A DNA stretch of 64,000 nucleotides from Alphaproteobacteria bacterium (GCA_013911655.1 JACESU010000002.1:64901-128900); one strand, 5' to 3'. Counted from the stretch's first letter, positions 7,505 to 47,011 are shown. The notes: generated from the letters alone by a model not told the origin. Numbers and translations: made by a program.

Positions 7505-7593
7505 TCTTTCTGTTTTCAAAAATAATAATATAATCACATAACGCCATAAAAGCCCTGTTAAAAAACAACTTATTGAACAATAAGGAAATAAAA

Positions 7594-8349
7594 ATGCTTG
7601 CAAAATATCTTATGGCAGCATTTCTGCTGTTAACTCCCCTCTCGTCTCTTTTAGCGTCTAATCTAGAAGATCTCTTGAATGATTCGGGTAAGTCTCGACG
7701 TGGCAGGGTTGAACAAGAGGATCCTTTTGAAGATCTTGACCAGATGTGGCATACGGGCGCTGTCTACTATGATCCCAATTTTTCACATCACGCGGGCCAG
7801 ACGCTTTATTTGATTGATTCCATAATACCGGCTGCCCGTGTGGATGCGCATGGTTATGCACACTTAAACGCATACGTTTTTGGAGATTGCAAAGAATGGC
7901 ATCAAGAGCAGGCGCGCCAGCATGCCACAACTAAATTTAGTGAGAAAAATGAAAACACCTTAGCCTTTATAAGGAAACTTACGGTCAGCAGCGGCGGATC
8001 GGTAGAGCGGGCGTATCGGAATTATGCGATCAAAGAAGGGGTGGAGTTTGCGAGCGCGTGGCTCGGGTATGTCCTTTATTCAAGTTATGGGGATGAGGCT
8101 CTTCTCGCGCAGATTTTTGGGACGATACCAAATGCTCGCCGCGCTGAGATTTTTGATTTGGTGCTCTTTGAGGTAACACCTGCCATGCCGACAGTTGCGG
8201 CTCTTAAAAGCATGCCGTCGCATCAACATGAAAAATCGGCCTACGCGGCGTTCGAGAGGATGAAGAACCGTTTGCTTGAGGGGGCCGCTTTTCCCAGAGA
8301 AAATCTGGAGTCAGTTCTCGAGACGTTTGTGCGCGAAAAAAATCTTTAG
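7594..8349 (+). CDS. hypothetical secreted protein
   Basis: ATG at 7594 is preceded by AAGGA. Signal peptide MLAKYLMAAFLLLTPLSSLLAS. I recognise no motif. The ORF track begins 7 codons earlier at TTG. Confidence 0.6.
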   Translation: MLAKYLMAAFLLLTPLSSLLASNLEDLLNDSGKSRRGRVEQEDPFEDLDQMWHTGAVYYDPNFSHHAGQTLYLIDSIIPAARVDAHGYAHLNAYVFGDCKEWHQEQARQHATTKFSEKNENTLAFIRKLTVSSGGSVERAYRNYAIKEGVEFASAWLGYVLYSSYGDEALLAQIFGTIPNARRAEIFDLVLFEVTPAMPTVAALKSMPSHQHEKSAYAAFERMKNRLLEGAAFPRENLESVLETFVREKNL

Positions 8350-8400: not shown

Positions 8401-10779
8401 TTATTTAGATAAGTGTTTGATGCTGGATAGGTATGAAATCCACCCCGGTGATTGAGCGTTTTGACCGTAGTGTTGATACACACCCATGTGCGCTTGCACA
8501 TCCCATGCTTGTCCAGCTGAGTTCACTGCTTGGGCTTTTATAATCTTTAAAAGTGGCGCCTTGTCCTGAAAGGTAGGGAGTGTGCTCAGGTGCTGAAGAT
8601 CTCCTAAAAAGGCCACTCTTTTTTCAGGGTTTGCGATTTGGGAAAAAACATCATTCAGATAGAACTCCCATGATGCCAAATCACCCATGGCAAAAGTAGA
8701 GACACTTGTGATGGCACGTGCGCGCGCTGCGCCGTCAGGTGTTGTGCTGACATACTTTTTGATGAACGACATTTTTCTTTTGCGCTCTGCGTCTCCCCAC
8801 TGTGGGAAATGAGCGGAGGTCGTCATTAAAAGAGCATCATGTCCTGATTGCACGCCTTTGAAGAAAAGGCCAAAGTTTGATAAGGCAGGATCAAGCGCGT
8901 TAGCAGCGCAGGCGCGGGCATGATGGTAACAAAGCGCCAGGACTTTTCCGTCACTAACCGTTTGCGCCATCAAGGTGATGAGAGGAAGCACTTGAGGGTT
9001 TTGGGCGACATCCATGACATTATCTTCGGCAAGAAAGCGCCTTTTTTCACCTGCCGAAAGACGCTCCATAAGCGGCTTCGTTGTGGGAAAGTCGGCGGCA
9101 GTTTGGCCTGACACGCGTGATAAGAACGTGGCTGTTTCTTGCAAGGAAGGTCCACCTGCGTCGGCGAAAAACTCAAGGTCATGAAACAGGTTAGGGTGTA
9201 CGTTGTAAAGCTTGTTGAGCTCGCGTATATGCACAAAATGCGTTTCTGGCGTCCGTTCTCCAGCCGTTAGAGGCAGGGATCTAATTTTGGAAAAAACCTG
9301 CAATTTTTGATCGAAGGGTGCCGTACGGAAAGCCTCTAAGCTCTGCCAGTATTGACAAATGGTGGGACCAAAATAGGAGAGATGATCATCAAAAAATGCA
9401 GCGTCCCGGGGCATGGTAGCAGGCAGAGTTGTTAAAAAGGAAAGAGCTTCAGGCAAAAGTTCGGGAGAAAGACCCAGGCCCATGAGTGCTTGGCCTTGGG
9501 CTGCGAAACGATCAGCGTCGTGAAGATGCGCGCTTGCATTTTGGATAAGCGTCACCCGTGTCCGTGCGTTTTGGACAGGAATGGCCAACACAAGGGGGGC
9601 CAGCTTTTGAAGAGTTTGTCGATTATCGGTCGATTGCCCGATTAAGGTCGGTGCAAGACCATTAAAAACCTTGAGAAGGGGGATGTTGACCATGCCTGGG
9701 GTTAAGACATCAAGGGTTTTTAGGCAAGAAAGGGTGTCGTCTGCCGCAAGACCGCCAAAATGTTGTGAGACCTTTGTAAGAAAAGCGATCTTTGTGTCGT
9801 GATTGTTGAGGCGGTTCATAAGCGCGAAAAGACTGTCTAATAAAGCACTTCTCATACCTGCATGAGCGCCCAGAATATGGGGTTGAAGGGCTTCAATAAG
9901 CTGCTCAGACACAGGATGTGATTGCCCCGCAACAAAGACAGTCGCAAGTCTTTCCATAACGTCTGTGCGTTCGTCACCCATAAGAGGGGCAAAGAAAGGA
10001 GTGAGAGTGCGTAGGCGCTGGATTCTTTGATCCATGGTGCAACCTGCAAAAGCGGGCTCTAAATCTGACAGAATGAAGGGAAGCTCAGTTTGGTCAAGGC
10101 CGCTTAAAAGGGGTTGTAGTTCTTCTAAGGTCCTGTCCATATCTTGAAGGTCGATGGCGGGTACAAGGGTCAGGAGGGCTTGCTGAACGGCGCCGCGGTG
10201 ATTGTTTGCAGTGCGCGCGAGAGTGCTAAGAATAATGGGGATATTTTCTTTCCTATCATCATGGTTGGCAAAGTAATCCAGAAAGGGAAGGGCCAATTTC
10301 AACATGTAAAATTGATCCGCTGGTGCGATGCCAAAAAGGGCTTGGTTGAGTGTGGTCAAAGCAGAGCTGATTGAACGCGCGTCAAAGGGCGCTGTGTAGA
10401 TACCAAGATATCTGGCAGTATCGGGCCAATTGGCGGGAAAGGCCGTGTTAAAAAAAGGACTCGCTGCGCCTAGAATGTCTACTTTTTCTTGTATAGAGGC
10501 GCCGCGCCTGGATAAGGGGGCTGTTTTGGTCAGGAAGATAACTTGCTCATGGGGATTGGGAAAATGTTGGGATAAATGAGGAGACAGATCTCTCAGGTCT
10601 GCTGCTGACAGATCGTCCTTATTAAAAACAGAGCGGGCTTTTTCAAGAACACTCTGCTCAACAAAAGGAATAGCGGCGGCGAGCCCCTTTTCTCGATCTT
10701 CCTGATCTGACGTGAAAGCAGGCGCCGCTCCCATAATCGTGCCACAAAGTAAGGCTAGCGCAAATACATTTTTAGTCAT
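8401..10779 (-). CDS. large hypothetical secreted protein, probably all-alpha repeat protein
   Basis: 792-aa uninterrupted ORF with signal peptide MTKNVFALALLCGTIMGAAPAFT. The composition is Leu/Ala-rich. Short L-x-P-containing helical segments recur (LQPLLSGLDQTEL, LEPAFAGCTMDQR, LTPFFAPLMGDER, LQPHILGAHAGMR, LTPGMVNIPLL, LAPTLIGQSTDNR, LAPLVLAIPVQN). No catalytic motif recognised. Confidence 0.8.
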   Translation of the reverse strand: MTKNVFALALLCGTIMGAAPAFTSDQEDREKGLAAAIPFVEQSVLEKARSVFNKDDLSAADLRDLSPHLSQHFPNPHEQVIFLTKTAPLSRRGASIQEKVDILGAASPFFNTAFPANWPDTARYLGIYTAPFDARSISSALTTLNQALFGIAPADQFYMLKLALPFLDYFANHDDRKENIPIILSTLARTANNHRGAVQQALLTLVPAIDLQDMDRTLEELQPLLSGLDQTELPFILSDLEPAFAGCTMDQRIQRLRTLTPFFAPLMGDERTDVMERLATVFVAGQSHPVSEQLIEALQPHILGAHAGMRSALLDSLFALMNRLNNHDTKIAFLTKVSQHFGGLAADDTLSCLKTLDVLTPGMVNIPLLKVFNGLAPTLIGQSTDNRQTLQKLAPLVLAIPVQNARTRVTLIQNASAHLHDADRFAAQGQALMGLGLSPELLPEALSFLTTLPATMPRDAAFFDDHLSYFGPTICQYWQSLEAFRTAPFDQKLQVFSKIRSLPLTAGERTPETHFVHIRELNKLYNVHPNLFHDLEFFADAGGPSLQETATFLSRVSGQTAADFPTTKPLMERLSAGEKRRFLAEDNVMDVAQNPQVLPLITLMAQTVSDGKVLALCYHHARACAANALDPALSNFGLFFKGVQSGHDALLMTTSAHFPQWGDAERKRKMSFIKKYVSTTPDGAARARAITSVSTFAMGDLASWEFYLNDVFSQIANPEKRVAFLGDLQHLSTLPTFQDKAPLLKIIKAQAVNSAGQAWDVQAHMGVYQHYGQNAQSPGWISYLSSIKHLSK

Positions 10780-16269: not shown

Positions 16270-17091
16270 ATGATTATTAAGATATCGACATTTTCTTCAT
16301 TTAAAATCGGTTTTGCGATCTTTTGTCTAGGTTTTTCAATTTTGGCAAAAGCATCAGATGGAATTGTAGAGGGTGCTAGCACCTCTTATTCTGTTAGAAA
16401 TCTTACCAGAAGATTTGAGGTAGATGCCAATAATTTCCAACAAAAAATGCCCGTAAAAGTAGTGAAAAATAAGTCTACATGGATAGGAAAGTTAACAGAA
16501 AATTTTGAACAAGATGCGCAACATGTTGTCACGTATGAAGAACTTCAAACAGATCTAACTTTTATGCATGAAACAAACGATTTTGCGGGCTATCAAGTAT
16601 GTCTGCCAAAAGCGTCTTTGACGCTCTCTCCCCCTTCTTTATCAGCACTTCAAAATTGGTTGGTACGTCGTAATAGCGCGGGTGAGAGGTTTACATATGA
16701 AAACGTAGAGTTTGCTGAAGCAGAAGGGTACCATTGGGGGCCAGCTGCTAAAAACAATATTGTTCATAAGAATATCGAACCAACGCTGATAATTGCACAA
16801 ATTCAGTTTACTTACGGAGATCCAATTTTGTCTTTAACTTACAAAGTTGAAGGTAAAAAGGATGCAACTGGTCAAACTTTTAAATATACGCCGCTTCTTT
16901 ACACTCCTTGTGGTATTCCTAATATGGTCGCTTATGAGTACGAAGACACGGCAACAGGCGAAATGAAACGTATATCATGCAAAGGAAAAATTCACGAAAC
17001 GGTAGATATACTAGATCCAAAGAACTTTAAAGTGTTTTTTGATGATCGCCATTACGTTGTAAAAACAGATCAATACTGGTTATATCATTAG
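16270..17091 (+). CDS. hypothetical secreted protein (AT-rich orphan)
   Basis: 273-aa ORF with N-terminal hydrophobic signal IGFAIFCLGFSILAKA. Codon usage is visibly more A/T-rich than in the flanking genes. No motif recognised. Confidence 0.7.
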   Translation: MIIKISTFSSFKIGFAIFCLGFSILAKASDGIVEGASTSYSVRNLTRRFEVDANNFQQKMPVKVVKNKSTWIGKLTENFEQDAQHVVTYEELQTDLTFMHETNDFAGYQVCLPKASLTLSPPSLSALQNWLVRRNSAGERFTYENVEFAEAEGYHWGPAAKNNIVHKNIEPTLIIAQIQFTYGDPILSLTYKVEGKKDATGQTFKYTPLLYTPCGIPNMVAYEYEDTATGEMKRISCKGKIHETVDILDPKNFKVFFDDRHYVVKTDQYWLYH

Positions 17092-23937: not shown

Positions 23938-24666
23938 TTATGCGCTTTCTTGAGGCAGAGCAGCACGGCACGCATAAAGAGCAACAGCCGCGGCATTGGA
24001 CACGTTCAACGTTGAAAAAGTTTCTGAGGTCGGCAAACGCAGATGCAGATCACAGGTTTTCTTTACAAGGGGTCTCAGGCCCTTACCTTCGGCGCCTAGG
24101 ACAAGTACCAAGGGAAAGGGTGGGGCCTTTTGCCCAAGGGGGTCACCGCGTTCGTCAAGGCCTGCAATCCAGTAGCCCTGCTCTTTTAGATAATCAAGAG
24201 CTCTTGATAAATTCACAACGGTGATCAACTGAACATGCTCAAGGGCGCCAGACGCGGTCTTGGCAAGAAGGGGGAGCTGTTCAGGGCTGTGACGGTCTTG
24301 CATGATGATGCCAGTGACGCCAAAGGCCGCGGCCGAGCGCACGATGGCCCCTACATTATGGGGGTCTGTCACCTGATCCAAAGCAAGAAGGAGTTGGGGT
24401 TTTTCTCTCTCGCAAAAGGTTTCAAGGCCAACGTCCGGCAAGGCGAGCGCTTCAACGCAGATGCCTTGGTGAACGGCTTGGGGACCAAACAAATCTATGA
24501 ACACCCGTTTGTCCACTTGCTGGCACACAAGATTTGGGCGCCCGGCTTTGATTTTTTGTGTATTCTCAGGTGTCAGGGTCAGTGCGCGCACAAGACGCCG
24601 TTGGGGATTGGAAAGCGCATGCATGACCGCATGGTCGCCGTAAATCCAAAGGGTTTTTTGACTCAA
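23938..24666 (-). CDS. rlmB: SpoU/TrmH-family rRNA 2'-O-methyltransferase (RlmB-like)
   Basis: 242 aa. SPOUT motifs LVLGAEGKGLR and LNVSNAAAVALY, with an N-terminal substrate-binding-like domain. Confidence 0.8.
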   Translation of the reverse strand: MSQKTLWIYGDHAVMHALSNPQRRLVRALTLTPENTQKIKAGRPNLVCQQVDKRVFIDLFGPQAVHQGICVEALALPDVGLETFCEREKPQLLLALDQVTDPHNVGAIVRSAAAFGVTGIIMQDRHSPEQLPLLAKTASGALEHVQLITVVNLSRALDYLKEQGYWIAGLDERGDPLGQKAPPFPLVLVLGAEGKGLRPLVKKTCDLHLRLPTSETFSTLNVSNAAAVALYACRAALPQESA

Positions 24667-24890
24667 AGAAAAACCTCGTGGTGTGTATCATTCCTCCCAT
24701 ATCTATCATAAAATCGCGCCACTCCCAATGAGGGTTGTCAAACAAGAAACAAGAGCGGTACACCTGATGCCAACGCGTCATCTATAAAAAATACTATTTA
24801 AAATAGGTAGAACATAGAAATATCTTGTTGTTTATATTGATTTATCAAAATATTATTTGAAGAAAAAAATTCTGTTTCAAGGAGGGGTAA

Positions 24891-25712
24891 ATGCTAAAAA
24901 TGGTGCGAGGGGCTTTTTGTGCGATTTTTTTAGTAGCTCAAGTAGGGGCTAGTGCTGGAGATGAAAGGTCGGAAAGGCCATCATTTACCTCTCAATCGCC
25001 TGTTTTTGAAAGTGAAAAGGGTTCTGTCAATCGTGTGGTAAACACTTCTATGCTTCAAAGCTACCTAAAGGCGCAAATCGAGTTTTTTGAGCAGGATATC
25101 TTACAGCCTCACTTTGTGAGCACAAGAGCCCTGTACGGTTTGTTGCAAGCTGTTTTGATAAAGGATGAGGAGGAAAGGCGTGCCTCTATTGAGATCTTAC
25201 GAAAAAAGACAAGACAACTGAGTGAAGAAAAATTGGCACTAGTTAATCGTTTTTTGCAGACGGTTGATCATGTGGAGACAACAAATTTTGAGTTTACTCA
25301 AAACGCACAAGGGGCAGAGTTGGCTGAGCCCCCTCTTGATCTTTTAAGTGCGCAGGCAGACCCACAGATGCAATTTTGGGAAGGTCCACAAGCGCAATCC
25401 TGGGAAGACTTGGATGTGCAAGCTTGGGTAGACCTGCAGGTGCAACTTTGTAAAATTCTTACTAGTCTTTCAGACTCAGTTCTTGCGTTTACGTCAAAGT
25501 ATAGAGATTCTCTTTCTTGTGTAACCTTTTTCAAGGGGAGGGATCCTTTGACTTTTTTACGACAACAGGCGGCCCTTGCCTTTCATGAAAAGGCACCAGC
25601 AGCCGTTTTAAGAGGTATTATCTGTGATCCTCAGTCGCGAGATCATCTTGCCATGGATGTAGAATGGAAATCAGTGCTTCCTGTCCTTTTTTCCCCTTTA
25701 AAAGAGAAATAA
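24891..25712 (+). CDS. secreted hypothetical protein, tandem paralogue family member 1
   Basis: AGGAGG SD and signal peptide MLKMVRGAFCAIFLVAQVGASA. It shares two blocks with the 26147 and 27071 genes: LQSYLKAQIEFFEQDILQPHFVSTRALYGLL and FLRQQAALAFHEK...DVEWKSVLPVLFSPL. Confidence 0.8.
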   Translation: MLKMVRGAFCAIFLVAQVGASAGDERSERPSFTSQSPVFESEKGSVNRVVNTSMLQSYLKAQIEFFEQDILQPHFVSTRALYGLLQAVLIKDEEERRASIEILRKKTRQLSEEKLALVNRFLQTVDHVETTNFEFTQNAQGAELAEPPLDLLSAQADPQMQFWEGPQAQSWEDLDVQAWVDLQVQLCKILTSLSDSVLAFTSKYRDSLSCVTFFKGRDPLTFLRQQAALAFHEKAPAAVLRGIICDPQSRDHLAMDVEWKSVLPVLFSPLKEK

Positions 25713-25792
25713 ATATTTCTTAGATGTAAGGGCAGCCGTAAAATTCTTTGAAGACGTTCACATATAAAAGACGCTCATGAGGAGAATCAGTA

Positions 25793-26014
25793 GTGAAAAA
25801 TATCTTACACTGGATATTTTGTATCAGTTTTTTTGCAACGCCGGTTTTTGGATCGACCCAGGATGAAGACAACAAGCAAGAGTGCAAGCAAGGAACCAGC
25901 ATCTACATGCCTGGGGATGAAGAGGATTATGAGGCTCATTGGCGAGTCTTGGAGGCAATGTTTGAGGACTTGATTGCGTCTAGTCAAAGGAACCGCACCC
26001 ATGCTTTGGAGTAG
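25793..26014 (+). CDS. short secreted protein; truncated member or remnant of the same paralogue family
   Basis: GTG start with an AGGAG SD. The signal peptide plus acidic stretch MKNILHWIFCISFFATPVFGSTQDEDNKQ parallels ...TGPVFGTADEDGG and ...AGPVFGSAEDEEERG of the neighbours. Both conserved family blocks are missing. It could be a pseudogene. Confidence 0.45.
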   Translation: MKNILHWIFCISFFATPVFGSTQDEDNKQECKQGTSIYMPGDEEDYEAHWRVLEAMFEDLIASSQRNRTHALE

Positions 26015-26132
26015 ACCCGCCGTACAACCCGCCTTGGTAAAAAAAAGATACAGCCCAAGAGGCTGTTAAAATCTTGCCGCTATCTTGTTCTTAAAGAAAG
26101 AAAATCGTACTGATTGAAAACGTCTACTTTTC

Positions 26133-26214
26133 ACAGGGAGTGATCAATGAAAAAATTATATGGGTGGGTCTTGTGTCTGGGGCTTCTCACGGGGCCGGTT
26201 TTTGGCACGGCTGA
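26133..26214 (+). repeat. conserved 5' UTR/SD plus signal-peptide-coding repeat, copy 1
   Basis: ACAGGGAGTGATCAATGAAAAAATTATATGGGTGGG... recurs at 27057. The first 55 nt differ at one position, and about 82 nt are alignable with roughly 10% mismatches before the similarity collapses. Confidence 0.85.
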
Positions 26215-26887
26215 TGAGGACGGGGGGAATAGCCGGACAGTACACACAAGCGTCGATATACGGCTAGATGAAGAGGTTGATCATACCATCCTGGTTCCAA
26301 ACAATTATGCCTTTCAAAAATATTTAAGGGCGCAACTTGATTTTTTTAGTCAAGAAACCCTGCAACCGGCTTTTATGACGACAAAGGCGCTTTATGGTTT
26401 TTTCTTTGCGACCTTGAGCGGTGGTCAAGAGGCGGTCGATCTTTCTGTTAGAATGTTGCTTCAAGATGTTGATGCTTTCACCCCTGAAACCAGAGAGGTA
26501 TTAAATAGTTTTTTACGAAGTGTTGATCAAGAGCCTTCTGACAGGAGAGAAATCACTCCAAAAATTACGATCCTTGATACTTTGATCAGGCAAGCAGAGC
26601 CACAGGTGCAGTCATGTAGGGGTATGACATTCAGGCCAGCTTCCGCATTGGCGCTTCTTTCCAGGAATCGAGATTTCCTACACATAATGGCTTTTCTCAA
26701 GGACAAAAGCTCGTTTATTGGTTTGCGCCAACAAGTGGTGCTTGCCTTTCACGAGAAAGTCCCAGAACCTATTTTCAAAAACGCTATGTGCGGGCCAGAG
26801 CTTCGCCAGGAGCTTGATATAGATGTGAGGTGGGACACTATTTTCCCGCTTCTTTGTGAGGCATTGCAAAAAGAGATTGCTGATTAG
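26147..26887 (+). CDS. secreted hypothetical protein, tandem paralogue family member 2
   Basis: Signal peptide MKKLYGWVLCLGLLTGPVFG. Family blocks FQKYLRAQLDFFSQETLQPAFMTTKALYGFF and GLRQQVVLAFHEK...DVRWDTIFPLLCEAL. Confidence 0.85.
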   Translation: MKKLYGWVLCLGLLTGPVFGTADEDGGNSRTVHTSVDIRLDEEVDHTILVPNNYAFQKYLRAQLDFFSQETLQPAFMTTKALYGFFFATLSGGQEAVDLSVRMLLQDVDAFTPETREVLNSFLRSVDQEPSDRREITPKITILDTLIRQAEPQVQSCRGMTFRPASALALLSRNRDFLHIMAFLKDKSSFIGLRQQVVLAFHEKVPEPIFKNAMCGPELRQELDIDVRWDTIFPLLCEALQKEIAD

Positions 26888-26895
26888 GAAAGACA

Positions 26896-26925
26896 AAAGG
26901 AGGGGGGTACGTCCCCTCCTTTATA
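26896..26925 (+). terminator. hairpin terminator candidate
   Basis: AAAGGAGGGG-gguacgu-CCCCUCCUUU, a 10-bp stem at 26896-26922, begins 9 nt after the stop at 26887. Confidence 0.55.
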
Positions 26926-27056
26926 AAAGGAGTTTTTCTGACTATCTCAAAAAACTATGAAAGAAAAAATCTTTGGATGAAAGTGAAAGGAGGACGCGTT
27001 ATTCACTCTTGTCTTGAAGGTAAAAATTTTCTACTTATTATGGGTGACTAATCATA

Positions 27057-27138
27057 ACAGGGAGTGATCAATGAAAAAATTATATGGGTGGGCCTTGTGT
27101 CTGGGGCTTCTTGCGGGACCAGTTTTTGGGTCGGCTGA
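27057..27138 (+). repeat. conserved 5' UTR/SD plus signal-peptide-coding repeat, copy 2
   Basis: See copy 1 (26133-26214). Confidence 0.85.
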
Positions 27139-28351
27139 AGATGAAGAAGAGCGGGGACAGCACGTTGGCGTTACCAAGGTCAACGCATACGATACTATGT
27201 ATAATCATGTGAGTCGCTTGCCTAACGGTTTTGCTCTTCAAGCCTATCTCAATGCTCAAATCGAGTTTTTTTGGCAAAAGGGCCTGTATAGCGAGTTCGT
27301 TGCGACCAAAGCGATTTATCAGCTTCTTTTAAAGGCGCTGGTGGATGAAGTCGACGCCTGGCCCGCCTATGCAAAAGAAATTCGTCAAACTCTTGAAACG
27401 TACCGGGCAGAAGGGCTAGCGGCCTCTGATGATTTTTTAAAAAAAATTGATGATACGTCTCCGGCTGTGATTGAAAATTGCCATGGCGCCCAAGCGTTTG
27501 CGCCGCGCAAAAGTGTGCTCCAAGAGCTTTGTGAACATGCGCCCGAGCAAGTCCTTGCACTCAAACACGATCTACAGATGCCGGCCTCTGCCCTTGCGAT
27601 GGCGTCTAAAAACAGGGATGTCGCGGCCTTGCTATCCTATTTCAAAGGGATTGATGAGTTACACTTTTTACGCCAACATGCCGCCCTTTCACTCCTTGAG
27701 AAAACAACGGCTGAGGCCCTTGAACACGCTGAGAGTTCACCTGAGTTAAGGAAAAACCTGACGATGTCCGTTGAATGGTCACTCTTGTTGCCGATCATTT
27801 TTTCACCAGCCCTTCCTGTCACAATGGATGACGAGATTTTGTTACATAGTCCTCTTGTGCGCCTTTATTTGGATCACTATGTCAAGGAGCATGAAAAGTT
27901 TAATTTTAAGGCCTCTAGTGGTTTCTTAAAAGCCCTTCAAACCCATACTCAAAAAGCAAATTGGCGAGTCTTCACAGAAGAAATGAACACAGTTACACAA
28001 GTGTATACAAAAGCCACTTGGGAAGATTGCCTTGCCGTGTGGGAAGAAGACAAAGAACGCCTTGCCACCCTGCAAAGCTCATTTCCTGATTTTAAAGCGC
28101 TATTTGTCGCGGAAAATCTTCCCCATACGCTTTATTTTGCCACACTTCAATATTATCTAGGGTGGTTTGCCGTAGAGTTTCATCAAAGAGCACTTTTGGG
28201 AACCTTTCCTAAGGAAGGATTTATACTCGCTTACACAGCGTGGCGTGAGATTGGTCCTGAGTGTTTTCAAGAAGGGAGCATCCCCCTTGAAATCACGCCA
28301 GAAGCGTGGGAAAAGTTAAAGAGTTTTAAACTGCTTCCTGCAAGGACGTAA
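27071..28351 (+). CDS. secreted hypothetical protein, tandem paralogue family member 3 (with ~180-aa C-terminal extension)
   Basis: Signal peptide MKKLYGWALCLGLLAGPVFG. Family blocks LQAYLNAQIEFFWQKGLYSEFVATKAIYQLL and FLRQHAALSLLEK...SVEWSLLLPIIFSPAL. An extra C-terminal region follows (from MDDEILLHSPLVRLYL...). Confidence 0.85.
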   Translation: MKKLYGWALCLGLLAGPVFGSAEDEEERGQHVGVTKVNAYDTMYNHVSRLPNGFALQAYLNAQIEFFWQKGLYSEFVATKAIYQLLLKALVDEVDAWPAYAKEIRQTLETYRAEGLAASDDFLKKIDDTSPAVIENCHGAQAFAPRKSVLQELCEHAPEQVLALKHDLQMPASALAMASKNRDVAALLSYFKGIDELHFLRQHAALSLLEKTTAEALEHAESSPELRKNLTMSVEWSLLLPIIFSPALPVTMDDEILLHSPLVRLYLDHYVKEHEKFNFKASSGFLKALQTHTQKANWRVFTEEMNTVTQVYTKATWEDCLAVWEEDKERLATLQSSFPDFKALFVAENLPHTLYFATLQYYLGWFAVEFHQRALLGTFPKEGFILAYTAWREIGPECFQEGSIPLEITPEAWEKLKSFKLLPART

Positions 28352-28360: not shown

Positions 28361-29203
28361 ATGTTTTCCTATCAACATGTCTATCATGCAGGGTCCCTTG
28401 CAGACATCCACAAGCACGCGTTTTTAGCCGTGCTTGTGGAAAGTCTGACGCAAAAGGACCGCCCTGTCAGTTATCTTGAAACCCACAGTGGCCGAGGGAT
28501 GTATGATGTATCATCACCCGAATCTTTGAAGACCGGAGAGGCAAAAAATGGCATTTTGCGCCTGGTGGCAGAGCAAGGCATGTCGAAGGATCATCCCTAT
28601 TGGCGCGCGGTTAATACGCATCAAGACAAATTTGGGGGGGCGAGTTATCCAGGCTCTCCTTGGATTGCGCGTTCTCTTCTGCGCGACCAAGACCAGCTTT
28701 ACCTGATGGAGTGTCACCCCCAAGAAATTTTGCATTTAAAAAAAAATATGAATGAACCCAATGTGCATATCCACGAACGTGATGGATATGAAGGGGTGCT
28801 TGCCCTCAGTCCGCCACAGGCAAGGCGTGGCCTCATTTTTATTGATCCGACCTATGAAGACAAAAACGAATACGAGCGCGTGGTCGCATTTACCAAGACG
28901 CTTCATGATAAATGGAAAGAGGCTGTCATTTGTGTCTGGTATCCGATCTTAAGGGCGGGTCATCAGGAAAAACTGACCAAAGCTCTTTCTCGGACCGACA
29001 TAGAGGTAAGTGTCTGGGAGATGCTGTTTCCTCAAAGCCTTGTGGGGTACGGCCTTCTGGGCAGTGGTCTTTATATCGTAAATATGCCTTATGGGATCAA
29101 GGATGCGCTTCAAAAGACAGACGCCCACTTGATAGCCTGGTTGAAACAAACAGCATCTCTTGCGCTAAGCGAGCAAAAAGAGACTGAAGATTATTTCTTT
29201 TAA
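28361..29203 (+). CDS. rlmJ: 23S rRNA (adenine-N6)-methyltransferase RlmJ
   Basis: 280 aa. The N-terminus MFSYQHVYHAGSLADIHKH matches the RlmJ signature (YRHxFHAGNxADVxKH). The (D/N)PP(Y/F)-type motif is present as IDPTYE. Confidence 0.82.
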   Translation: MFSYQHVYHAGSLADIHKHAFLAVLVESLTQKDRPVSYLETHSGRGMYDVSSPESLKTGEAKNGILRLVAEQGMSKDHPYWRAVNTHQDKFGGASYPGSPWIARSLLRDQDQLYLMECHPQEILHLKKNMNEPNVHIHERDGYEGVLALSPPQARRGLIFIDPTYEDKNEYERVVAFTKTLHDKWKEAVICVWYPILRAGHQEKLTKALSRTDIEVSVWEMLFPQSLVGYGLLGSGLYIVNMPYGIKDALQKTDAHLIAWLKQTASLALSEQKETEDYFF

Positions 29204-29578: not shown

Positions 29579-30202
29579 ATGACCGTGGAACACACGTCTG
29601 CGCAACAACAAGAAGAAATCCTTTTGGCAACGCTGTCTCATGTGCCGTTTGAAGGGTGGACCATGGAAGCGTTGCGTCGTGGGTGTGAAACGGTGGGCTA
29701 TCCAAGAGAGCGCGCCAACTGGCTTTTTGGGGCGAGCCCTCTTGGACTTGTTGAGGCCTTTTTTTTGATGACGGATCGTAAGATGCTTTTGGCGTTGGAT
29801 GAGCATGATTTAACACAAATGCGAGTCAGGGACCGCGTGGCTCTTGCCATCAGGCTGCGTCTTGAGCTTTTGGAAGCCCACAAAATAGCTGTTGACCGGG
29901 CATTGGCTTTTTTGTCCCATCCAACCCGTCTTCGTGAAGGACTCTCGTTTGTGGCGCGCACGGTAAGTGAGATTTGGTACGCGGCCGGAGACAGTGCCAC
30001 AGATTTTAACTACTACACAAAGCGCGCCCTTTTGATGGGTGTTTATATGACAACGCTTAGATTTTGGTTGCGGGACACCTCACCAAGCCACACAGAAACG
30101 CACGATTTTTTGGAAAGCAAGCTTGATAAAGTGATGCAAATTCCTAAGGTAAAAGAAAAAATCAAACAAGTGTCTGGAAAACTGGGTAACTTGTTTAGAT
30201 AA
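29579..30202 (+). CDS. COQ9-family protein (the alphaproteobacterial 'rpsU-divergently transcribed protein')
   Basis: 207 aa and helical, transcribed divergently from rpsU exactly as in the family of that name. The N-terminal region EILLATLSHVPFEGWT... is consistent with my recollection of COQ9-like proteins. Confidence 0.7.
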   Translation: MTVEHTSAQQQEEILLATLSHVPFEGWTMEALRRGCETVGYPRERANWLFGASPLGLVEAFFLMTDRKMLLALDEHDLTQMRVRDRVALAIRLRLELLEAHKIAVDRALAFLSHPTRLREGLSFVARTVSEIWYAAGDSATDFNYYTKRALLMGVYMTTLRFWLRDTSPSHTETHDFLESKLDKVMQIPKVKEKIKQVSGKLGNLFR

Positions 30203-30223: not shown

Positions 30224-31435
30224 ATGAAAAAGAACACCCTCGGTGCCGTCATTCTTGCGATCATCTGCGGCACGCGCGTGGTCGCAAGCGAGGAATCTGT
30301 ACTGCTCCTTGCCTTTACCGCGAGCGAAGCCAAATCCTTTGAAAGTGTGTCAAAAGAGCTTGTGCGTCTCAACGTTCCTCACGCTTTGGTGGGTCTTGGC
30401 GTTGCCTACGCAATTTTGAAAGATCACCCGCGAGCGCTGTCCTTAAAAGTGAAGTGCGGCCTAAGAGGTCCTGTCCACCGCACGGAGTGGCCCTCAAAAC
30501 AGCGCCTGCCAGAGGGAGATCTTCTCAAGCTCTCGGGATGCCTTGATCCCCACGTCGCAATGTTGGGGACATATGCCCGTGTGCAAGCCCAAATCGCCTC
30601 AATCTTTCGTAAAAAAGGAAGCTATGTGATTTCGTTTTACGATGATTTTTATAAAGATACTCCGCAAATTATGGTCAAAAGCGCGCTTCCAAGATCCCAT
30701 GAAATTTTGTTGCCCACGCCAAAACTGCTCCCCTTTTTCCAAAAGATTTTTCCCCACATTCCAACCCATGTGACGGGAAGACCCAATAACGAGACGTGGC
30801 TTTTTGCCAGAAAGCGCGTCAACGAGGTGCGCCTTCGTGAAAAGCTGATCCCCCAAGCATTTAGAAAGCATAAAATCCTTTTTTATTTGGGGGGATACGG
30901 ACGAGATTACAACGATTCCTTTGAAGAGCTTGTAAAGTTTGTTAAGCAAAAACCAGAGCTGTTAGCCGTTTACTCCCCTTATCCAGGCGACAATGGCAAA
31001 AGAGAAATGTCGCTCATCCAGATGTACGGTGTGAAAAATTTCATCGCGCTTCCCCCAGACGTGCCGGTAGAAGAAGCCGTTTATCTGGCAGACCGCATCT
31101 TGTGTCACAGGTCTAACACAGGGATTCAAGCAGCCTTTGCAGGGCTTGCGGTGGGATATTACGACACCAGCCTTTATGTGTATCAAAATCCTTTGATCGA
31201 TAAAGGGATTGTGCCCCATCTTCAAACCCAGAAAGACCTTCATAAATTCATTGATGAGCCCTATCAGCATCCTCGTCACACCCCAGAAGAGCTGAGTGAA
31301 AAAATGAATTGGCCTTTGGGGGCGGCGCACACCATTGCCCTTCGGATCAAAGAACGTTTGACAAGCCGTCTTCACGCGTCGTCCCTCCAAGGACTTCCCT
31401 GGCAAGGCCCTGGAATCCTTGATCCCTCATCTTAA
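30224..31435 (+). CDS. hypothetical protein with signal peptide; possible Rossmann/GT-B-like C-terminal half
   Basis: GGGAGG SD and signal MKKNTLGAVILAIICGTRVVAS. The C-terminal pattern KILFYLGGYG...LAVYSPYPG...ADRILCHRSNTGIQAAFAGLAVGYYD loosely resembles the nucleotide-sugar-binding half of GT-B enzymes. This is a weak impression only. Confidence 0.65.
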   Translation: MKKNTLGAVILAIICGTRVVASEESVLLLAFTASEAKSFESVSKELVRLNVPHALVGLGVAYAILKDHPRALSLKVKCGLRGPVHRTEWPSKQRLPEGDLLKLSGCLDPHVAMLGTYARVQAQIASIFRKKGSYVISFYDDFYKDTPQIMVKSALPRSHEILLPTPKLLPFFQKIFPHIPTHVTGRPNNETWLFARKRVNEVRLREKLIPQAFRKHKILFYLGGYGRDYNDSFEELVKFVKQKPELLAVYSPYPGDNGKREMSLIQMYGVKNFIALPPDVPVEEAVYLADRILCHRSNTGIQAAFAGLAVGYYDTSLYVYQNPLIDKGIVPHLQTQKDLHKFIDEPYQHPRHTPEELSEKMNWPLGAAHTIALRIKERLTSRLHASSLQGLPWQGPGILDPSS

Positions 31436-39341: not shown

Positions 39342-39719
39342 GTGCACGGATTAGATGAAGGCCTCCTCCAGGAATACCTGCCCATTTTCGTGTTCATTTT
39401 TGTCGCGATTGCCTTTTCAGGACTTTTGATTTTCTTGGGATGGTTTAGAGGTCCTAAAAAGCCAGATCCCGAGAAACTCTCGCCATACGAATGCGGCTTC
39501 GAGCCTTTTGAGGCGCCGCGCCGCCGCTTTGATGTGCGCTTTTACCTGGTGGCCATTCTCTTTATTATTTTCGATCTTGAAGTCGCTTTTCTTTTTCCCT
39601 GGTCGGTGTCGCTGTCCGAGGTCGGTGTGTTTGGCTTTTGGTCCATGATGGTGTTTTTGGGCATCTTAACAGTGGGCTTTATCTATGAATGGAAGAAGGG
39701 GGCCTTAGATTGGGAATAG
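39342..39719 (+). CDS. nuoA: NADH-quinone oxidoreductase subunit A
   Basis: 125 aa, 3 [10 protein letters not shown] motif, first gene of the nuo operon. GTG start. Confidence 0.93.
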
Positions 39720-40258
39720 AGGAACTTGTGCGTCAAACGACGCTCCCCACGGGGTTTAGTGAGGATGATCTGGCCAAATCCATGTACGAGGGTGCCGAGA
39801 ATCGCGGCTATTTATTGGGTCAGGTGGATCAGGTGGTTGCGTGGGCTAGAAGCGGGTCTTTGTGGCCTATGACCTTTGGGCTTGCGTGCTGTGCAGTCGA
39901 GATGATGCACACCGCTGCCAGTCGGTATGACCTGGACCGGGTTGGCGTTGTTTTTAGGCCAAGCCCTCGTCAATCAGATTTGATGATTGTGGCGGGGACT
40001 TTGACCAATAAAATGGCCGGCGCTCTTCGCAAAGTCTACGACCAAATGGCAGAGCCCAGGTGGGTCTTGTCCATGGGGTCTTGCGCCAATGGGGGCGGGT
40101 ACTATCACTATTCCTATTCCGTTGTGCGCGGGTGTGACCGCATTGTGCCCGTGGATGTGTATGTCCCCGGATGTCCCCCCACAGCAGAAGCTCTTTTGTA
40201 CGGCATCACACAATTGCAGCGCAAAATTCGCCAGCCAAAACACTTTGTGATTGGATAG
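39689..40258 (+). CDS. nuoB: NADH-quinone oxidoreductase subunit B
   Basis: N2 cluster ligand motifs GLACCAVEM and GCPPT. The exact start is uncertain: ATG 39689 overlaps nuoA, and TTG 39710 is an alternative. Confidence 0.93.
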
Positions 40259-40261
40259 CCC

Positions 40262-40882
40262 ATGACGACTAAAACACTTCACGATTTTGAATCCACCATT
40301 CGTCTCGGGATCAGGGGATCTCTCATCCAAAGCGATATTCATTTAGGTGAGCTTTGCTTGCGCGTGAAGGTAAGCGACATTGTCGAGGTGCTTTTGTATC
40401 TGCGAGATCAATCATCTCTTGCGTTTCGTCAGCTGATTGATTTATGCGGCGTTGATTATCCGGGGCGTGAAAAACGCTTTGAGGTTGTGTATCACCTTCT
40501 TAGCCACCGCCATAACAGGCGTGTGCGCGTTAAGGTAGAAGTTGATGAACAAGAGTGCGTCCCATCGGTTTGTACCGTTTTCAAGGCGGCTAACTGGTTC
40601 GAGCGTGAAGCGTGGGATCTTGTGGGGATCCCTTTTGAGGGACATCCTGATATGCGCCGCATTTTAACGGACTATGGTTTCGAGGGGCACCCCCTTCGTA
40701 AAGATTTTCCGGTCATGGGATATAGCGAGCTTCGGTATGACGTGGTCGAGGGCCGCGTTGTGTATGGACCTGTGGATTTGCCCCAGGCGTATCGTTCTTT
40801 TGATTTTCTCAGTCCTTGGGACGGCATGACGCCGACGGCTCCTGTCCTGCCAGGTGATGAAAAAGCAACGAGGGAGCTCTAA
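40262..40882 (+). CDS. nuoC: NADH-quinone oxidoreductase subunit C
   Basis: 206 aa with the [13 protein letters not shown] motif. It is separate from nuoD, not fused. Confidence 0.93.
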
Positions 40883-40884
40883 TC

Positions 40885-42063
40885 ATGGCCAAGTCCTCGT
40901 CCAATCTTCATACCATTAACTTTGGTCCCCAGCACCCGGCTGCCCACGGCGTGTTGCGTCTTGTCCTTGACCTTGACGGCGAGGTAGTCGAGCGCGCGGA
41001 TCCCCATATTGGGCTCTTGCACCGCGGGACTGAAAAGCTGATTGAGGAAAAAACTTATCTGCAAGCGCTTCCCTATTTTGACCGTCTCGATTATGTGGCG
41101 CCCATGTGCCAAGAGCACGCCTTTGCGCTGGCCGTTGAAAAGCTTTTAGGCCTTGACGTGCCCCTGCGCGGTCAATATTTACGCGTTCTATTTGCAGAGC
41201 TCTCGCGCATCATGAACCATATCTTGAACCTGACAACCTACGCTTTGGACGTAGGGGCCATGACACCGCTTTTATGGGGGTTTGAGGACCGGGAAAAGAT
41301 TATGGTCTTTTGCGAGCGTGCGTGCGGGGCGCGCCTTCATGCTAATTACTTTCGCCCGGGCGGCGTATCCCAGGATGTGCCCGATGGTCTTCTTGAAGAT
41401 ATTGCAAGGTTTATTCAAGAGTACCCCAAAGCCATCGATGATATGGAAGGGCTTTTGACTGAAAATCGCATTTTCAAACAGCGTACCGTGGATATCGGGG
41501 TTGTGAGCAAGGACCAAGCTCTGGAATGGGGTTTTTCAGGTCCTATGCTGCGTGCTTCCGGCATTGCGTGGGACTTGCGGCGCAATCAACCCTATGACGT
41601 TTACGCGGATCTTGATTTCCAAGTCCCCATTGGTAAAAACGGCGACTGTTATGATCGGTATCTTGTGCGGGTAGAGGAACTTCGCCAGTCTGTGCACCTG
41701 ATTGAGCAGTGCCTGGAAAAAATGCCCCAAGGGCCTGTGATGACGGAAAATCCCAAGGTGGCGCCTCCCGCGCGTTCGGACATGAAGCGCTCTATGGAAG
41801 CGCTCATTCACCATTTCAAGTTGTACACTGAAGGCTATCACGTACCGGCAGGTGAAACCTATACAGCCGTCGAAGCACCCAAGGGCGAGTTTGGTGTCTA
41901 TCTTGTGTCCGATGGCACTAACAAGCCGTACCGTTGTAAAATACGCGCACCAGGATTTGCGTTCCTTCAAGGACTTGATTTTATGGCAAAGAAACACATG
42001 CTTGCCGACATTCCTGCCTTGATTGGATCCATGGATATTGTTTTTGGAGAGATAGATCGATGA
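40885..42063 (+). CDS. nuoD: NADH-quinone oxidoreductase subunit D
   Basis: 392 aa. [14 protein letters not shown]-terminal signature. Confidence 0.96.
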
Positions 42064-42644
42064 AGCGTCATCTTAGATCATCGGGTACGCCCTTTGCGTT
42101 TGCGCCAGATAAACAGGCGTCCTTTGAGGAGGCGATCAAGCGTTATCCCGAAGGCCGTCAAAAAAGCGCTGTGATGGCAGGTCTTCATCTTGCCCAAGAA
42201 CAACAAGGCTGGATCAGTGAGGAAGTCGTTGAGACCATTGCGGCGCGCCTAGGTATGCCAGCCCTTCGGGTGTGGGAAGTCGCAAGTTTTTACACCATGT
42301 ACAATCTTGAGCCCAAGGGGACCTATCATCTGCAGGTGTGCACGACAACGCCTTGTTGGCTTCGGGGGAGTGATGAGGTTTTAAAAGCTTGTCACGCCAA
42401 AGCAGCCGCTCACGGTGCCAATGTTTTTAGTGTCACGGAAGTTGAATGCCTTGGGGGGTGTGTAAATGCGCCCATTGTTCAAATCAATAATGACTTTTAC
42501 GAGGACCTAACGGGTGAATCAACAGCTGACCTTTTGGATCAGCTTGCGGCAGGTGAAAACGTGAAAGCCGGATCCATGACGGGGCGCTGCGGGTCGGCAC
42601 CCCAAGGATATGAAAGTGAAAAAGCGGGAGGAGATCATGCTTAA
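42060..42644 (+). CDS. nuoE: NADH-quinone oxidoreductase subunit E
   Basis: 2Fe-2S ligand pattern [10 protein letters not shown] ... [10 protein letters not shown]. Confidence 0.93.
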
Positions 42645-43899
42645 AGATCAAGACCGCATTTTTACAAATCTTTACGGGGATAAATCCTGGCATCTTGACG
42701 ACGCGCTTGCTCGGGGTGATTGGGCGGGGACCAAGGAGCTTATTGGCCGGGGCCGCGAGCAGGTCATCCAAGAAATGATGGACTCGGGCCTTCGAGGACG
42801 CGGGGGGGCAGGCTTTCCCACGGGACGCAAGTGGTCCTTTATGCCAAAGCCAGGCAAATTTCCTCATTATTTAGTTGTGAACGCTGACGAAAGCGAGCCT
42901 GGTACCTGTAAGGACCGAGACATTCTTCGGTTCGAGCCTCACAAGTTGATTGAAGGCGCCCTTATTGCCGGGTTTGCGATCCATGCCCATACGGGGTACA
43001 TTTATATTCGCGGTGAGTTTTATCAAGAAGCCCTTCACTTAGAAGAGGCCATCAAAGAAGCCTATACCAAAGGGCTTTTAGGGAAGAACGCTGCTGGTTC
43101 GGGTTGGGATTTTGATCTTTATGTGCACCGAGGGGCAGGGGCCTATATTTGCGGCGAGGAAACCGCGCAACTTTCCAGCATCGAAGGCGGAAAAGGCCTT
43201 CCTCGCTTGAAGCCCCCGTTCCCTGCGATTTCAGGTCTTTATGGATGCCCTACCATCATTAATAACGTGGAAAGCCTTGCTGTTGTGCCGACAATTCTTA
43301 GGCGCGGCGCCCCGTGGTTTGCGGGGCTTGGCGTGAAGGATTCGGCTGGTACCAAAGTTTTTTGTATTTCAGGGCACGTGAACAAACCGTGCAACGTGGA
43401 AGAAGAGCTTGGCATTCCTTTGAAAACCCTCATTGAAACCCATGCGGGCGGTGTGCGGGGTGGTTGGGATAACTTGCTAGCCATTATTCCGGGCGGATCG
43501 TCTGTGCCTCTTTTGCCCAAAGACATTTGCGACACTATCACCATGGATTTCACGAGTCTGAGCGCTGTAAAAAGTGGTCTTGGGACAGCGGCCGTCATTG
43601 TAATGGATAAGTCGACGGACATTGTCTATGCCATTGCGCGCCTGTCAAAGTTTTATATGCACGAAAGCTGCGGTCAGTGCACGCCGTGCCGCGAGGGTAC
43701 CGGGTGGATGTGGCGTCTTCTTATGCGTCTTGCCAAGGGAGAGGGGACTTTTGCGGACATTGATAAGCTTGAAGATATTTCTTACCAAATTGAAGGGCGC
43801 ACCATTTGCGCCCTGGGAGATGCGGCGGCCTGGCCTGTGCAGGGGCTTTTGCGGCACTTCCGTCACGAGCTTGTGCGCCGCGTGAAAAAGGCGGCCTAA
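42637..43899 (+). CDS. nuoF: NADH-quinone oxidoreductase subunit F
   Basis: FMN/NADH site [10 protein letters not shown] and the N3 cluster [15 protein letters not shown] 42637 ([14 protein letters not shown]) overlaps the nuoE stop by 8 nt. Confidence 0.96.
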
Positions 43900-43915
43900 G
43901 GAAAAAGGGAAAACC

Positions 43916-47000: not shown

Positions 47001-47011
47001 GAGAGAGATTC

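What the first reader, a model, noticed from the sequence alone, without database searches (positions are those of the whole stretch)
24891..28351. Tandem array of four paralogous secreted orphan proteins inserted between rlmB and rlmJ
Seen: four same-strand genes (24891, 25793, 26147, 27071) each have an SD and a signal peptide followed immediately by an acidic stretch (SAGDERSERP, STQDEDNKQE, TADEDGGNS, SAEDEEERG). The three full-length members share two blocks. The N-proximal block is [LF]Q.YL.AQ[IL][ED]FF.Q..L...F[VM].T[RK]A[LI]Y. The C-proximal block is F[LI].LRQ[QH].[AV]L[AS][FL].EK ... P[EQ][LS]R..L..[DS]V.W...[LF]P[LVI][LI]. Elsewhere they have diverged strongly, with different lengths (273, 246 and 426 aa), and the last has a ~180-aa extension. 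I recognise no known domain. A lineage-specific, rapidly diversifying secreted family of this kind is what one expects of surface or effector proteins, or of periplasmic immunity- or chaperone-like proteins. The function is unknown.
Basis: partly seen in the sequence, partly recalled or inferred. Interest (0 to 1): 0.65.

Follow-up and report, generated by a model that had tools for sequence, protein, structure and literature searches.

The report
Orphan exported protein family, tandemly expanded
Between two rRNA-methylase genes, an uncultured alphaproteobacterium carries three intact copies and one stub of an exported, all-helical protein family of unknown function; the family occurs only in a small group of related uncultured bacteria and is real and well conserved there, but nothing points to unusual biology.

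Summary
Four same-strand ORFs sit at the stated coordinates, each with an SD, a Sec-type signal peptide and an acidic N-terminus. The three full-length proteins are clear paralogues (BLASTP E 2e-38 to 2e-44, 31-33% identity over about 245 aa). The 73-aa ORF shares only the first ~45 residues.

The family is an orphan: no Pfam, NCBIfam, PADLOC, PHROG or PDB match, no plasmid or phage match, and only about ten homologues among billions of proteins. However, it is not an insertion. Every relative found has rlmB | short gene | long gene | rlmJ in the same place, or the long gene alone.

The "180-aa extension" is a conserved second domain of the ancestral long form. The short forms are N-domain-only duplicates. 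The window lineage added one copy (A273) and a 5' stub (B73). An 83-nt tract covering the RBS and signal peptide was copied between C246 and D426.

Selection is purifying (dN/dS 0.12-0.27, against 0.04-0.11 in neighbours), with no sign of diversifying selection. An AlphaFold model (pLDDT 77) is all-helical and has no significant Foldseek match.

Best guess: these are non-enzymatic periplasmic binding or scaffold proteins in a clade whose one classified member is in GTDB Caedimonadales. Function is unproven. Interest is modest.

The parts
23938..24666 (-). rlmB-like SpoU rRNA methylase. It is the left border gene and is transcribed divergently from the array.
   Evidence: PF00588 2.9e-36 and PF08032. 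It holds the same position in all related loci.
24667..24890 (.). AT-rich divergent intergenic region (224 nt) with the SD AGGAGG of A273.
   Evidence: GC is 0.39-0.43 here against 0.51-0.54 to the left. Sequence read.
24891..25712 (+). A273: an extra short (N-domain-only) paralogue found only in this lineage. It has a signal peptide, an acidic N-terminus and a ~25-aa Q/W/E-rich insert.
   Evidence: BLASTP E 2e-38 and 4e-34 to C246 and D426. It branches outside the C246+s254 group within the short clade (C246+s254 grouping 100% in 200 NJ bootstraps). It is absent from all 19 other loci. It is present in a second sample.
25793..26014 (+). B73: a 5' stub of a family member. The signal peptide and acidic linker (~45 aa) are homologous and the rest is unrelated. 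It is probably a remnant of a decayed copy.
   Evidence: It matches family HMM positions 2-47 only, E 1e-6, with no downstream remnant in any frame.
26147..26887 (+). C246: the fast-evolving orthologue of the conserved short gene (254-264 aa in relatives).
   Evidence: 49-50% identity to the short genes of L001, L004 and L005, and groups with them in 100% of bootstraps. dN/dS is 0.23-0.27. A Cys pair (C157/C215) is conserved in the near-clade short genes.
26132..26214 (+). 5' conversion tract, copy 1 (RBS plus signal-peptide codons of C246).
   Evidence: 75/83 nt are identical to 27056-27138, while flanks are 45-48% identical and the rest of the proteins 27% identical.
26896..26939 (.). G+C-rich hairpins followed by a T run after C246. 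They resemble a bidirectional terminator separating the short-gene and long-gene transcription units.
   Evidence: Terminator scan. An analogous G+C-rich hairpin follows the short gene in L004. This is a consensus match only and is not proof of function.
27014..27041 (+). Sigma-70-like promoter candidate for the D426-rlmJ unit (TTGAAG, 16 nt spacer, TATTAT).
   Evidence: Promoter scan. The surrounding sequence is conserved upstream of the long gene in L001 and L004. Inferred, not shown.
27056..27138 (+). 5' conversion tract, copy 2 (RBS plus signal-peptide codons of D426).
27071..28351 (+). D426: the ancestral two-domain long form. Signal peptide aa 1-20, disordered acidic linker to about aa 45, N-domain aa ~46-245 (27206-27805), C-domain aa ~252-420 (27824-28330).
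   Evidence: Orthologues are 78% and 70% identical (P0004, P0005). Distant long forms were found by profile search: P0007 at E 5e-32, P0008 and P0009 at 5e-10 and 8e-5, and P0009-P0011. The AF2 model has pLDDT 76.6 and pTM 0.61 and is all-helical, with pLDDT below 50 for residues 1-45. dN/dS is 0.12-0.21.
28361..29203 (+). rlmJ (23S rRNA m6A2030 methyltransferase family). It starts 9 nt after D426 and its SD lies inside the end of D426, so the two are probably co-transcribed.
   Evidence: PF04378 4.8e-47. A gap of 7-9 nt and an embedded AGGA are conserved in near and far clades.

Best explanation
Shown:
- This is a real family of Sec-signal-bearing, soluble, acidic, all-helical proteins, restricted to one clade and inherited vertically.
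- The ancestral gene is the long two-domain form (D426).
- D426 lies directly upstream of rlmJ.
- A short gene encoding only the N-domain lies upstream of the long gene in most lineages.
- This genome has gained one more short copy (A273) and retains a 5' stub of another (B73).
- The RBS and signal-peptide DNA has been copied between C246 and D426.

Inferred:
- D426 is probably co-transcribed with rlmJ.
- The short gene probably has its own promoter and terminator.
- The proteins are exported to the periplasm and cleaved after residue ~20.
- They act there as non-enzymatic binding or scaffold proteins.
- The N-domain is the shared interaction module, so short forms would partner or compete with the long form. 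The C-domain would give the long form an extra function.
For: - Paralogy.
- Signal-peptide features, acidic pI and no TM segment in all 16 members examined.
- A conserved Cys pair in the near-clade short genes is consistent with an oxidising compartment. DsbB is encoded nearby in a relative.
- Conserved synteny rlmB | short | long | rlmJ across loci whose RlmJ is 90, 84 and 52% identical. The lineage at 60% has the long form only.
- Outgroup loci lack the family.
- Purifying selection along the whole length.
- GC and GC3 track each host genome and are always a few points below neighbours, so the genes are ameliorated and not recent imports.
- No plasmid or phage homologues.
- The tree puts near-clade short and long forms together in 100% of bootstraps and never groups all short forms.
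- The 5' conversion tract. Far-clade paralogues show the same shared 5' DNA.
- Residues invariant across the family are mostly aromatic or aliphatic (Y59, F66, Y83, W236; C-domain F, W, Y, L, P, A). The only invariant polar residues are D183, E210, S283 and E393, with R182 near-invariant, and no conserved His or Cys. This fits a scaffold or binding fold better than a typical hydrolase.
- The confident AF2 model is a helical two-domain protein.
Against: - No experiment or expression data exist for any member.
- Export is inferred from sequence with a home-made rule, not SignalP.
- The claim that the proteins are non-enzymatic rests on the absence of a recognisable catalytic set. R182-D183 with E210 could still be an active site.
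- The short/long partnership is pure inference, because no complex prediction was possible.
- Linkage with rlmJ is broken in L011 by an ABC-F gene, so the operon link carries no functional meaning.
Confidence: 0.45

Rival explanations
1. These are host-interaction proteins. They would be stored in the periplasm and released to a protist host, as in Holospora, or passed on by a further secretion system.
For: The one far-clade MAG with a published classification (GCA_020161545.1, L014) is GTDB o__Caedimonadales; f__UBA1908 (PMC9723799). Holosporales in the broad sense are obligate associates of eukaryotes, mostly protists. Holospora obtusa stores lineage-specific 89-kDa, 63-kDa and 5.4-kDa proteins in its periplasm and releases them during infection (PMC11909080). 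The family is orphan, varies in copy number and evolves 3-5 times faster than its neighbours.
Against: There is no sequence relation to any Holospora protein: the exhaustive search found only clade members. dN/dS is well below 1 everywhere. The position is fixed next to housekeeping genes and the long gene is probably in an operon with rlmJ. No eukaryote-like domain is present. The lifestyle of this particular genome is unknown; the window encodes PHB synthase, a Cache-type sensor kinase and complex I.
Confidence: 0.2
2. These are periplasmic immunity or inhibitor proteins against envelope-targeting toxins such as T6SS effectors. The extra copies would be orphan immunity genes.
For: The genes are tandem signal-peptide-bearing paralogues with copy-number variation. 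A T6SS is reported as widespread in Holosporales (PMC11909080).
Against: No toxin, effector, VgrG, PAAR or Rhs gene lies next to the array in any of the loci; all neighbours are housekeeping genes. There is no PADLOC or Pfam immunity-family hit. The 426-480-aa two-domain long form is large for an immunity protein (my own knowledge). Strict vertical synteny is unlike immunity islands.
Confidence: 0.1
3. This is a novel all-helical periplasmic enzyme, for example one acting on the cell wall or on lipids. The R182-D183/E210 cluster would be its active site.
For: R182 (near-invariant), D183 and E210 (both invariant) are the few polar residues conserved in every N-domain, including the far-clade short forms.
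Against: No match to any enzyme family by sequence or by Foldseek. The conserved polar residues could equally be structural salt bridges. Duplicates that keep only one domain are more typical of binding modules.
Confidence: 0.1
4. This is a recently acquired genomic island, or the ORFs are non-functional or spurious.
For: GC is lower than in the flanks (0.43-0.46 against 0.51-0.54). B73 is a truncated stub. The only two differences from a second sample are both nonsynonymous changes in A273.
Against: The orthologues are syntenic and under purifying selection across deep divergence. GC tracks the host genome in each lineage. No integrase or plasmid or phage homologue was found; the window's two tRNA genes are far from the array, and the only sizeable direct repeat in the region is the internal conversion tract. 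The three long ORFs are intact in independent samples. Only B73 is likely non-functional.
Confidence: 0.04

Closest known systems
Holospora obtusa periplasmic infection-stage proteins (89-kDa, 63-kDa, 5.4-kDa)
   Same: Both are lineage-specific, Sec-exported proteins without known domains, in a bacterium of the Holosporales in the broad sense. In Holospora they are stored in the periplasm (PMC11909080).
   Different: There is no detectable sequence relation. The sizes differ. No infectious-form biology is known for this clade. Release to a host is not shown here.
Tandem arrays of periplasmic T6SS immunity genes (orphan immunity islands)
   Same: Both are same-strand tandem paralogues with signal peptides and variable copy number.
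   Different: No neighbouring effector gene is present. The position is fixed and vertically inherited between housekeeping genes. The ancestral member is a large two-domain protein. No match to any immunity family was found.
Generic 'hypothetical protein' orphan families of uncultured MAG lineages
   Same: Members carry only the name 'hypothetical protein' in NCBI or JGI, or no name at all (H2057_05190/05195, C0514_01190). Only about ten 50-90% clusters exist in public data.
   Different: This family now has a defined domain architecture, a duplication history, evidence on selection and a confident structure model.
Helical-bundle folds at the top of the Foldseek list (MATE transporter, NESCA RUN domain, Mcl-1/Bcl-2)
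   Same: All are all-alpha.
   Different: The matches are not significant (best E 0.69, TM 0.11-0.25). They should not be read as homology.

Membership tests
Any curated protein family (Pfam-A, NCBIfam, PADLOC, PHROGs, PDB sequences) | Profile or sequence match at or above the curated threshold | tested here: not met
   The best Pfam hits have E 0.009-0.14 in single members, far below the gathering scores, and none recurs across members. NCBIfam best E is 0.048. PADLOC and PHROGs give only isolated weak hits. The profile search against PDB gives 0 hits at E<=10.
Sec/SPase I exported proteins | Positively charged n-region, 10-15-residue hydrophobic h-region, small residues at -3/-1, and no further TM segment | tested here: met
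   All 16 family members fit (for example VFG|SAEDE, VGA|SAGDE, IWA|SAQEE). The maximum 19-residue hydropathy of the mature part is below 1.5. This used my own rule-based script. SignalP was not available and cleavage is not shown.
Bacterial lipoproteins (SPase II) | Lipobox [LVI][ASTVI][GAS]C at the end of the h-region, with a conserved Cys at +1 | tested here: not met
   Cys10 sits inside the h-region in the context W-A-L-C and is replaced by Ser or Gly in orthologues (P0004, L005). No lipobox is present.
Twin-arginine (Tat) substrates | An S/T-R-R-x-F-L-K-type motif in the n-region | tested here: not met
   The n-regions read MKKLYGW, MLKMVRG or MKEIFKA. L001_s254 begins MRRVLRW, but its RR lies outside any S/T-R-R-x-F-L-K context.
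T6SS or other toxin-immunity modules | An adjacent cognate toxin or effector gene | tested here: not met
   Neighbours in the family-bearing loci L001-L004, L007, L008, L011, L013 and L014 are rnr, topA, dprA, plsY, rlmB, rlmJ, rpsU and COQ9-like genes.
Horizontally acquired genomic island | Patchy distribution, flanking tRNA, integrase or direct repeats, and foreign composition | tested here: not met
   The family is syntenic in all clade members. No integrase, nearby tRNA or flanking repeats were found. GC is 3-7 points below neighbours but tracks each genome.
Gene family under diversifying (positive) selection | dN/dS above 1 overall or in segments | tested here: not met
   Whole-gene dN/dS is 0.12-0.27 and the sliding-window maximum is 0.59. 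Site-level tests were not possible with 4-5 orthologues. Paralogue comparisons are saturated.
Known structural fold | A significant structural match for a confident model | tested here: inconclusive

The most novel reading that the evidence does not exclude
The family could be a structurally new two-domain periplasmic protein, invented in a clade related to GTDB Caedimonadales, that works at the host interface as Holospora periplasmic proteins do. The N-domain-only copies would then be a birth-and-death set of variant binding modules, and repeated homogenisation of the RBS and signal peptide would keep their export and expression matched.
Probability: 0.15. Interest if true: 0.6.

Novelty: new variant of a known kind. 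Interest (0 to 1): 0.33.

Why it matters
If the family does act at the envelope or host interface, it would be a clade marker and a handle on the biology of an uncultured clade whose one classified member is in GTDB Caedimonadales (Holosporales in the broad sense), a group in which almost no interaction molecules are known. It may also have a fold that is not yet catalogued. As it stands it is one of many uncharacterised exported families in MAGs. The practical gain here is a corrected picture: an ancestral long form, truncated duplicates, no insertion and no positive selection. The 5' conversion of RBS plus signal peptide between otherwise saturated paralogues is a small but clean example of partial concerted evolution.

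Tried and rejected
- Internal duplication, with the C-terminal domain as a diverged copy of the N-domain: hhalign gave E 0.17 and probability 0.3%. Rejected.
- More paralogues or remnants in the window or in 19 related loci: none beyond those listed. No other protein of this MAG appeared in the three database searches.
- B73 as the displaced original 5' end of C246: its signal peptide scores slightly better against the s254 type (82) than against C246 or D426 (75-76). The difference is too small to decide, so this is left as a possibility.
- Mobile-element origin: no plasmid or phage hits and no PHROG hit.
- First AF2 run with 5 sequences: pLDDT 50, unusable. It was replaced by an 11-sequence run.
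- Paper searches for sample or assembly names (HARO18, SRR12009695, CoA8N, PNJU01): nothing useful, except the GTDB class of GCA_020161545.1.
- Polymorphism test on A273: only 2 differences, both nonsynonymous. Too few to interpret.
Orthologue comparisons were used instead.
Full report
**1. Observation**

- A273: 24891-25712
- B73: 25793-26014, with a GTG start
- C246: 26147-26887
- D426: 27071-28351

They lie between a SpoU-type methylase on the - strand (23938-24666; PF00588 2.9e-36) and RlmJ (28361-29203; PF04378 4.8e-47). Each start is preceded by an SD-like motif, and the four quoted acidic stretches all begin at residue 21.

The three full-length proteins are unambiguous paralogues. BLASTP gives E 2e-38, 4e-34 and 2e-44, at 31-33% identity over the whole ~245-residue N-terminal part.

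B73 shares only its first ~45 residues, the signal peptide and acidic linker, with the family (HMM positions 2-47, E 1e-6). Nothing family-like follows it in any frame. An independent sample carries the same A273+B73 DNA with 2 mismatches in 1468 nt, and two more contigs carry D426. The array is therefore not an assembly artefact.

**2. What the proteins look like**

All 16 family members I collected share these features:
- a positively charged n-region, a short hydrophobic core and small residues at -3/-1
- an acidic mature protein (pI 4.5-5.5)
- no further hydrophobic segment

They have no lipobox and no Tat motif. This was scored with my own script, not SignalP.

The acidic run after the signal peptide is not special to this family. 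At least five unrelated Pfam-less ORFs in the window show the same arrangement: 7573, 8401(-), 16270, 30224 and 60139.

A first AlphaFold run on 5 sequences failed (pLDDT 50). With 11 sequences, including distant homologues, the D426 model reached pLDDT 76.6 and pTM 0.61. The model shows:
- residues 1-45 are low-confidence and read as the signal peptide plus a disordered linker
- residues ~46-245 form a helical domain with one small hairpin
- residues ~252-420 form a second helical domain

The two domains are not detectably related to each other (hhalign E 0.17).

**3. Orphan status**

No family library or sequence collection gave a meaningful match:

| Search | Result |
|---|---|
| Pfam-A | only isolated hits, E 0.009-0.14 |
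| NCBIfam | best E 0.048 |
| PADLOC, PHROGs | isolated weak hits |
| PDB sequences (profile) | 0 hits at E<=10 |
| Plasmids, phages (tblastn) | no match |
| Foldseek vs PDB | best E 0.69, TM 0.11 |
| Foldseek vs BFVD | best E 0.92 |

A profile search of 1.84 billion representative proteins found only 7 proteins, all of this family. Word-indexed searches of 5.8 billion clusters added three more. Members carry only the name "hypothetical protein" or no name at all. The window's own genome is an NCBI MAG labelled "Alphaproteobacteria bacterium", locus tags H2057_05190/05195.

**4. Context in relatives: not an insertion**

Every contig that carries a homologue shows the same neighbourhood: rnr, topA, dprA, plsY, rlmB (all -), then | short gene | long gene | rlmJ (all +).

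| Loci | Short gene | Long gene | RlmJ identity to window |
|---|---|---|---|
| L001-L003 | 254 aa | 427 aa | 90% |
| L004-L006 | 254 aa | 427 aa | 84% |
| L007, L008, L013, L014 | 264 aa | 467-473 aa | 52% (measured for L013/L014 only) |
| L011 | none | 426 aa, followed by an ABC-F gene before rlmJ | 60% |

More distant genomes labelled Holosporales, Alphaproteobacteria or Rhodospirillales have rlmJ in other contexts and no family member. A family HMM run over six-frame translations of all 19 loci found exactly one short and one long copy per locus, or the long copy only. Nothing like A273 or B73 appeared outside this genome.

Family genes are always a few GC and GC3 points below their neighbours but follow each genome's overall GC. 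The pair is an old resident of this site, and only A273 and B73 are new.

**5. History of the family**

The domains differ in how well they are conserved at depth. In the distant long forms the C-terminal domain is 27-34% identical to D426 and the N-domain 20-26%. The "extension" is therefore an ancestral domain.

A neighbour-joining tree of the mature N-domain (197 columns, 200 bootstraps) gives these results:
- Near-clade short and long forms group together in 100% of replicates, to the exclusion of L011 and the far clade.
- All short forms never group together (0%).
- Short genes therefore arose from the long gene by duplication and loss of the C-domain, more than once, or the paralogues are homogenised within lineages.
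- C246 groups with the 254-aa genes (100%) and is their fast-evolving orthologue (49-50% identity, while RlmB is 95% identical).
- A273 branches outside that group. It is either an older copy lost elsewhere or a fast-diverging duplicate.

Recombination within the array is directly visible. Positions 26132-26214 and 27056-27138, covering the RBS plus the first 22 codons, are 75/83 nt identical. Flanking DNA is 45-48% identical and the mature domains 27%. The far-clade short and long genes also share their RBS and signal-peptide DNA.

**6. Selection**

| Gene(s) | dN/dS (Nei-Gojobori, orthologues) |
|---|---|
| long gene | 0.12-0.21 |
| short gene | 0.23-0.27 |
| topA, rlmB, rlmJ, COQ9-like | 0.04-0.09 |
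| dprA | 0.09-0.11 |

No 40-codon window exceeds 0.59. The genes are functional and constrained but evolve 3-5 times faster than most housekeeping neighbours. There is no sign of diversifying selection at this resolution. Paralogue comparisons are saturated and were not used.

**7. Transcription units (inferred)**

- The long gene ends 7-9 nt before rlmJ in both near and far clades, and the rlmJ SD lies inside its last codons. This suggests co-transcription.
- A hairpin with a T run follows C246 at 26896-26939. A conserved -35/-10-like element (27014-27041) precedes D426.
- The short and long genes therefore look like separate units.
- The link to rlmJ is broken in L011, so I give it no functional weight.

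**8. Lineage**

One far-clade MAG (GCA_020161545.1, L014) is classified by GTDB as o__Caedimonadales; f__UBA1908 (PMC9723799). Caedimonadales is one of the three orders GTDB carves out of the Holosporales. The Holosporales are described as obligate associates of eukaryotes, mostly freshwater protists (PMC11909080).

The placement of the window's own genome was not tested directly. Its window encodes PHB synthase, a Cache-type sensor kinase and complex I, so strong genome reduction is not evident.

**9. Mechanism**

Shown: the family is real, carries signal peptides, is helical, is restricted to one clade, is inherited vertically and is under purifying selection. Its pattern of duplication, truncation and 5' conversion is also shown.

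Inferred: export to the periplasm, and a non-enzymatic binding or scaffold role. The residues invariant across the family are mainly aromatic or aliphatic. The only invariant polar residues are D183, E210, S283 and E393, with R182 near-invariant, and there is no conserved His or Cys. A conserved Cys pair in the near-clade short genes fits an oxidising compartment. Repeated retention of N-domain-only copies beside the two-domain protein suggests that the N-domain is an interaction module and that short forms partner or compete with the long form.

I give this composite reading 0.45. The rivals are:
- host-directed proteins stored in the periplasm, as in Holospora (0.2)
- immunity proteins (0.1; no toxin neighbour in any locus)
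- a new helical enzyme using R182-D183/E210 (0.1)
- a recent island or junk ORFs (0.04, except that B73 is probably a remnant)

**10. Verdict**

This is an uncharacterised family with no detectable relatives and possibly an uncatalogued fold. In kind, however, it is a familiar object: a lineage-specific exported paralogue family in a MAG lineage. Nothing found would greatly surprise a specialist. Interest 0.33.

Noticed in passing
window 7573-8349(+), 8401-10779(-), 16270-17091(+), 30224-31435(+), 60139-62451(+): Five further ORFs begin with a signal-peptide-like N-terminus followed by an acidic stretch (for example AAPAFTSDQEDRE, RVVASEESV, SLCSASTDSLQDEL). Four of them were scanned against Pfam and had no hit; 7573-8349 was not scanned. 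The 'signal peptide + acidic N-terminus' layout is a general trait of exported orphans in this genome. The 403-aa one (30224) is conserved in L001 and in L005/L006 (405 aa).
   Followed up: partly
window 26132-26214 and 27056-27138; L007 and L008 5' ends of the short and long genes: The RBS and signal-peptide DNA is kept near-identical between paralogues that are otherwise saturated (75/83 nt in the window). A similar pattern occurs independently in the far clade. This could be recurrent gene conversion or a shared 5' regulatory element.
   Followed up: partly
window 58216-60090(-), 62885-63967(-): Two more large ORFs (624 and 360 aa) have no Pfam match, so the window is rich in unannotatable proteins.
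   Followed up: no
window 29579-30202(+); L001 18317-19355: A bacterial COQ9-like protein (PF08511) lies next to the array, and DsbB and COQ7 genes lie a few kb downstream in relatives. DsbB-COQ7 adjacency is also seen in the Holosporales-labelled outgroup loci L015-L018.
   Followed up: no
L011 4130-5935: In the lineage that has only the long gene, an ABC-F ATPase gene sits between the long gene and rlmJ. A 361-nt spacer without family remnants separates rlmB from the long gene.
   Followed up: partly
window 39689-57927(+): A complete-looking nuo (complex I) operon (NuoD, F, G, H, J, L, M and N identified). Together with PhaC (4192-6045) and a Cache-type histidine kinase (2026-4161), it suggests a genome that is not strongly reduced.
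   Followed up: no
L020 (SRR21511354) against window 24695-26162: A second sample holds the same population. The only two differences in 1468 nt are both nonsynonymous changes in A273 (R26K, D206G).
   Followed up: yes
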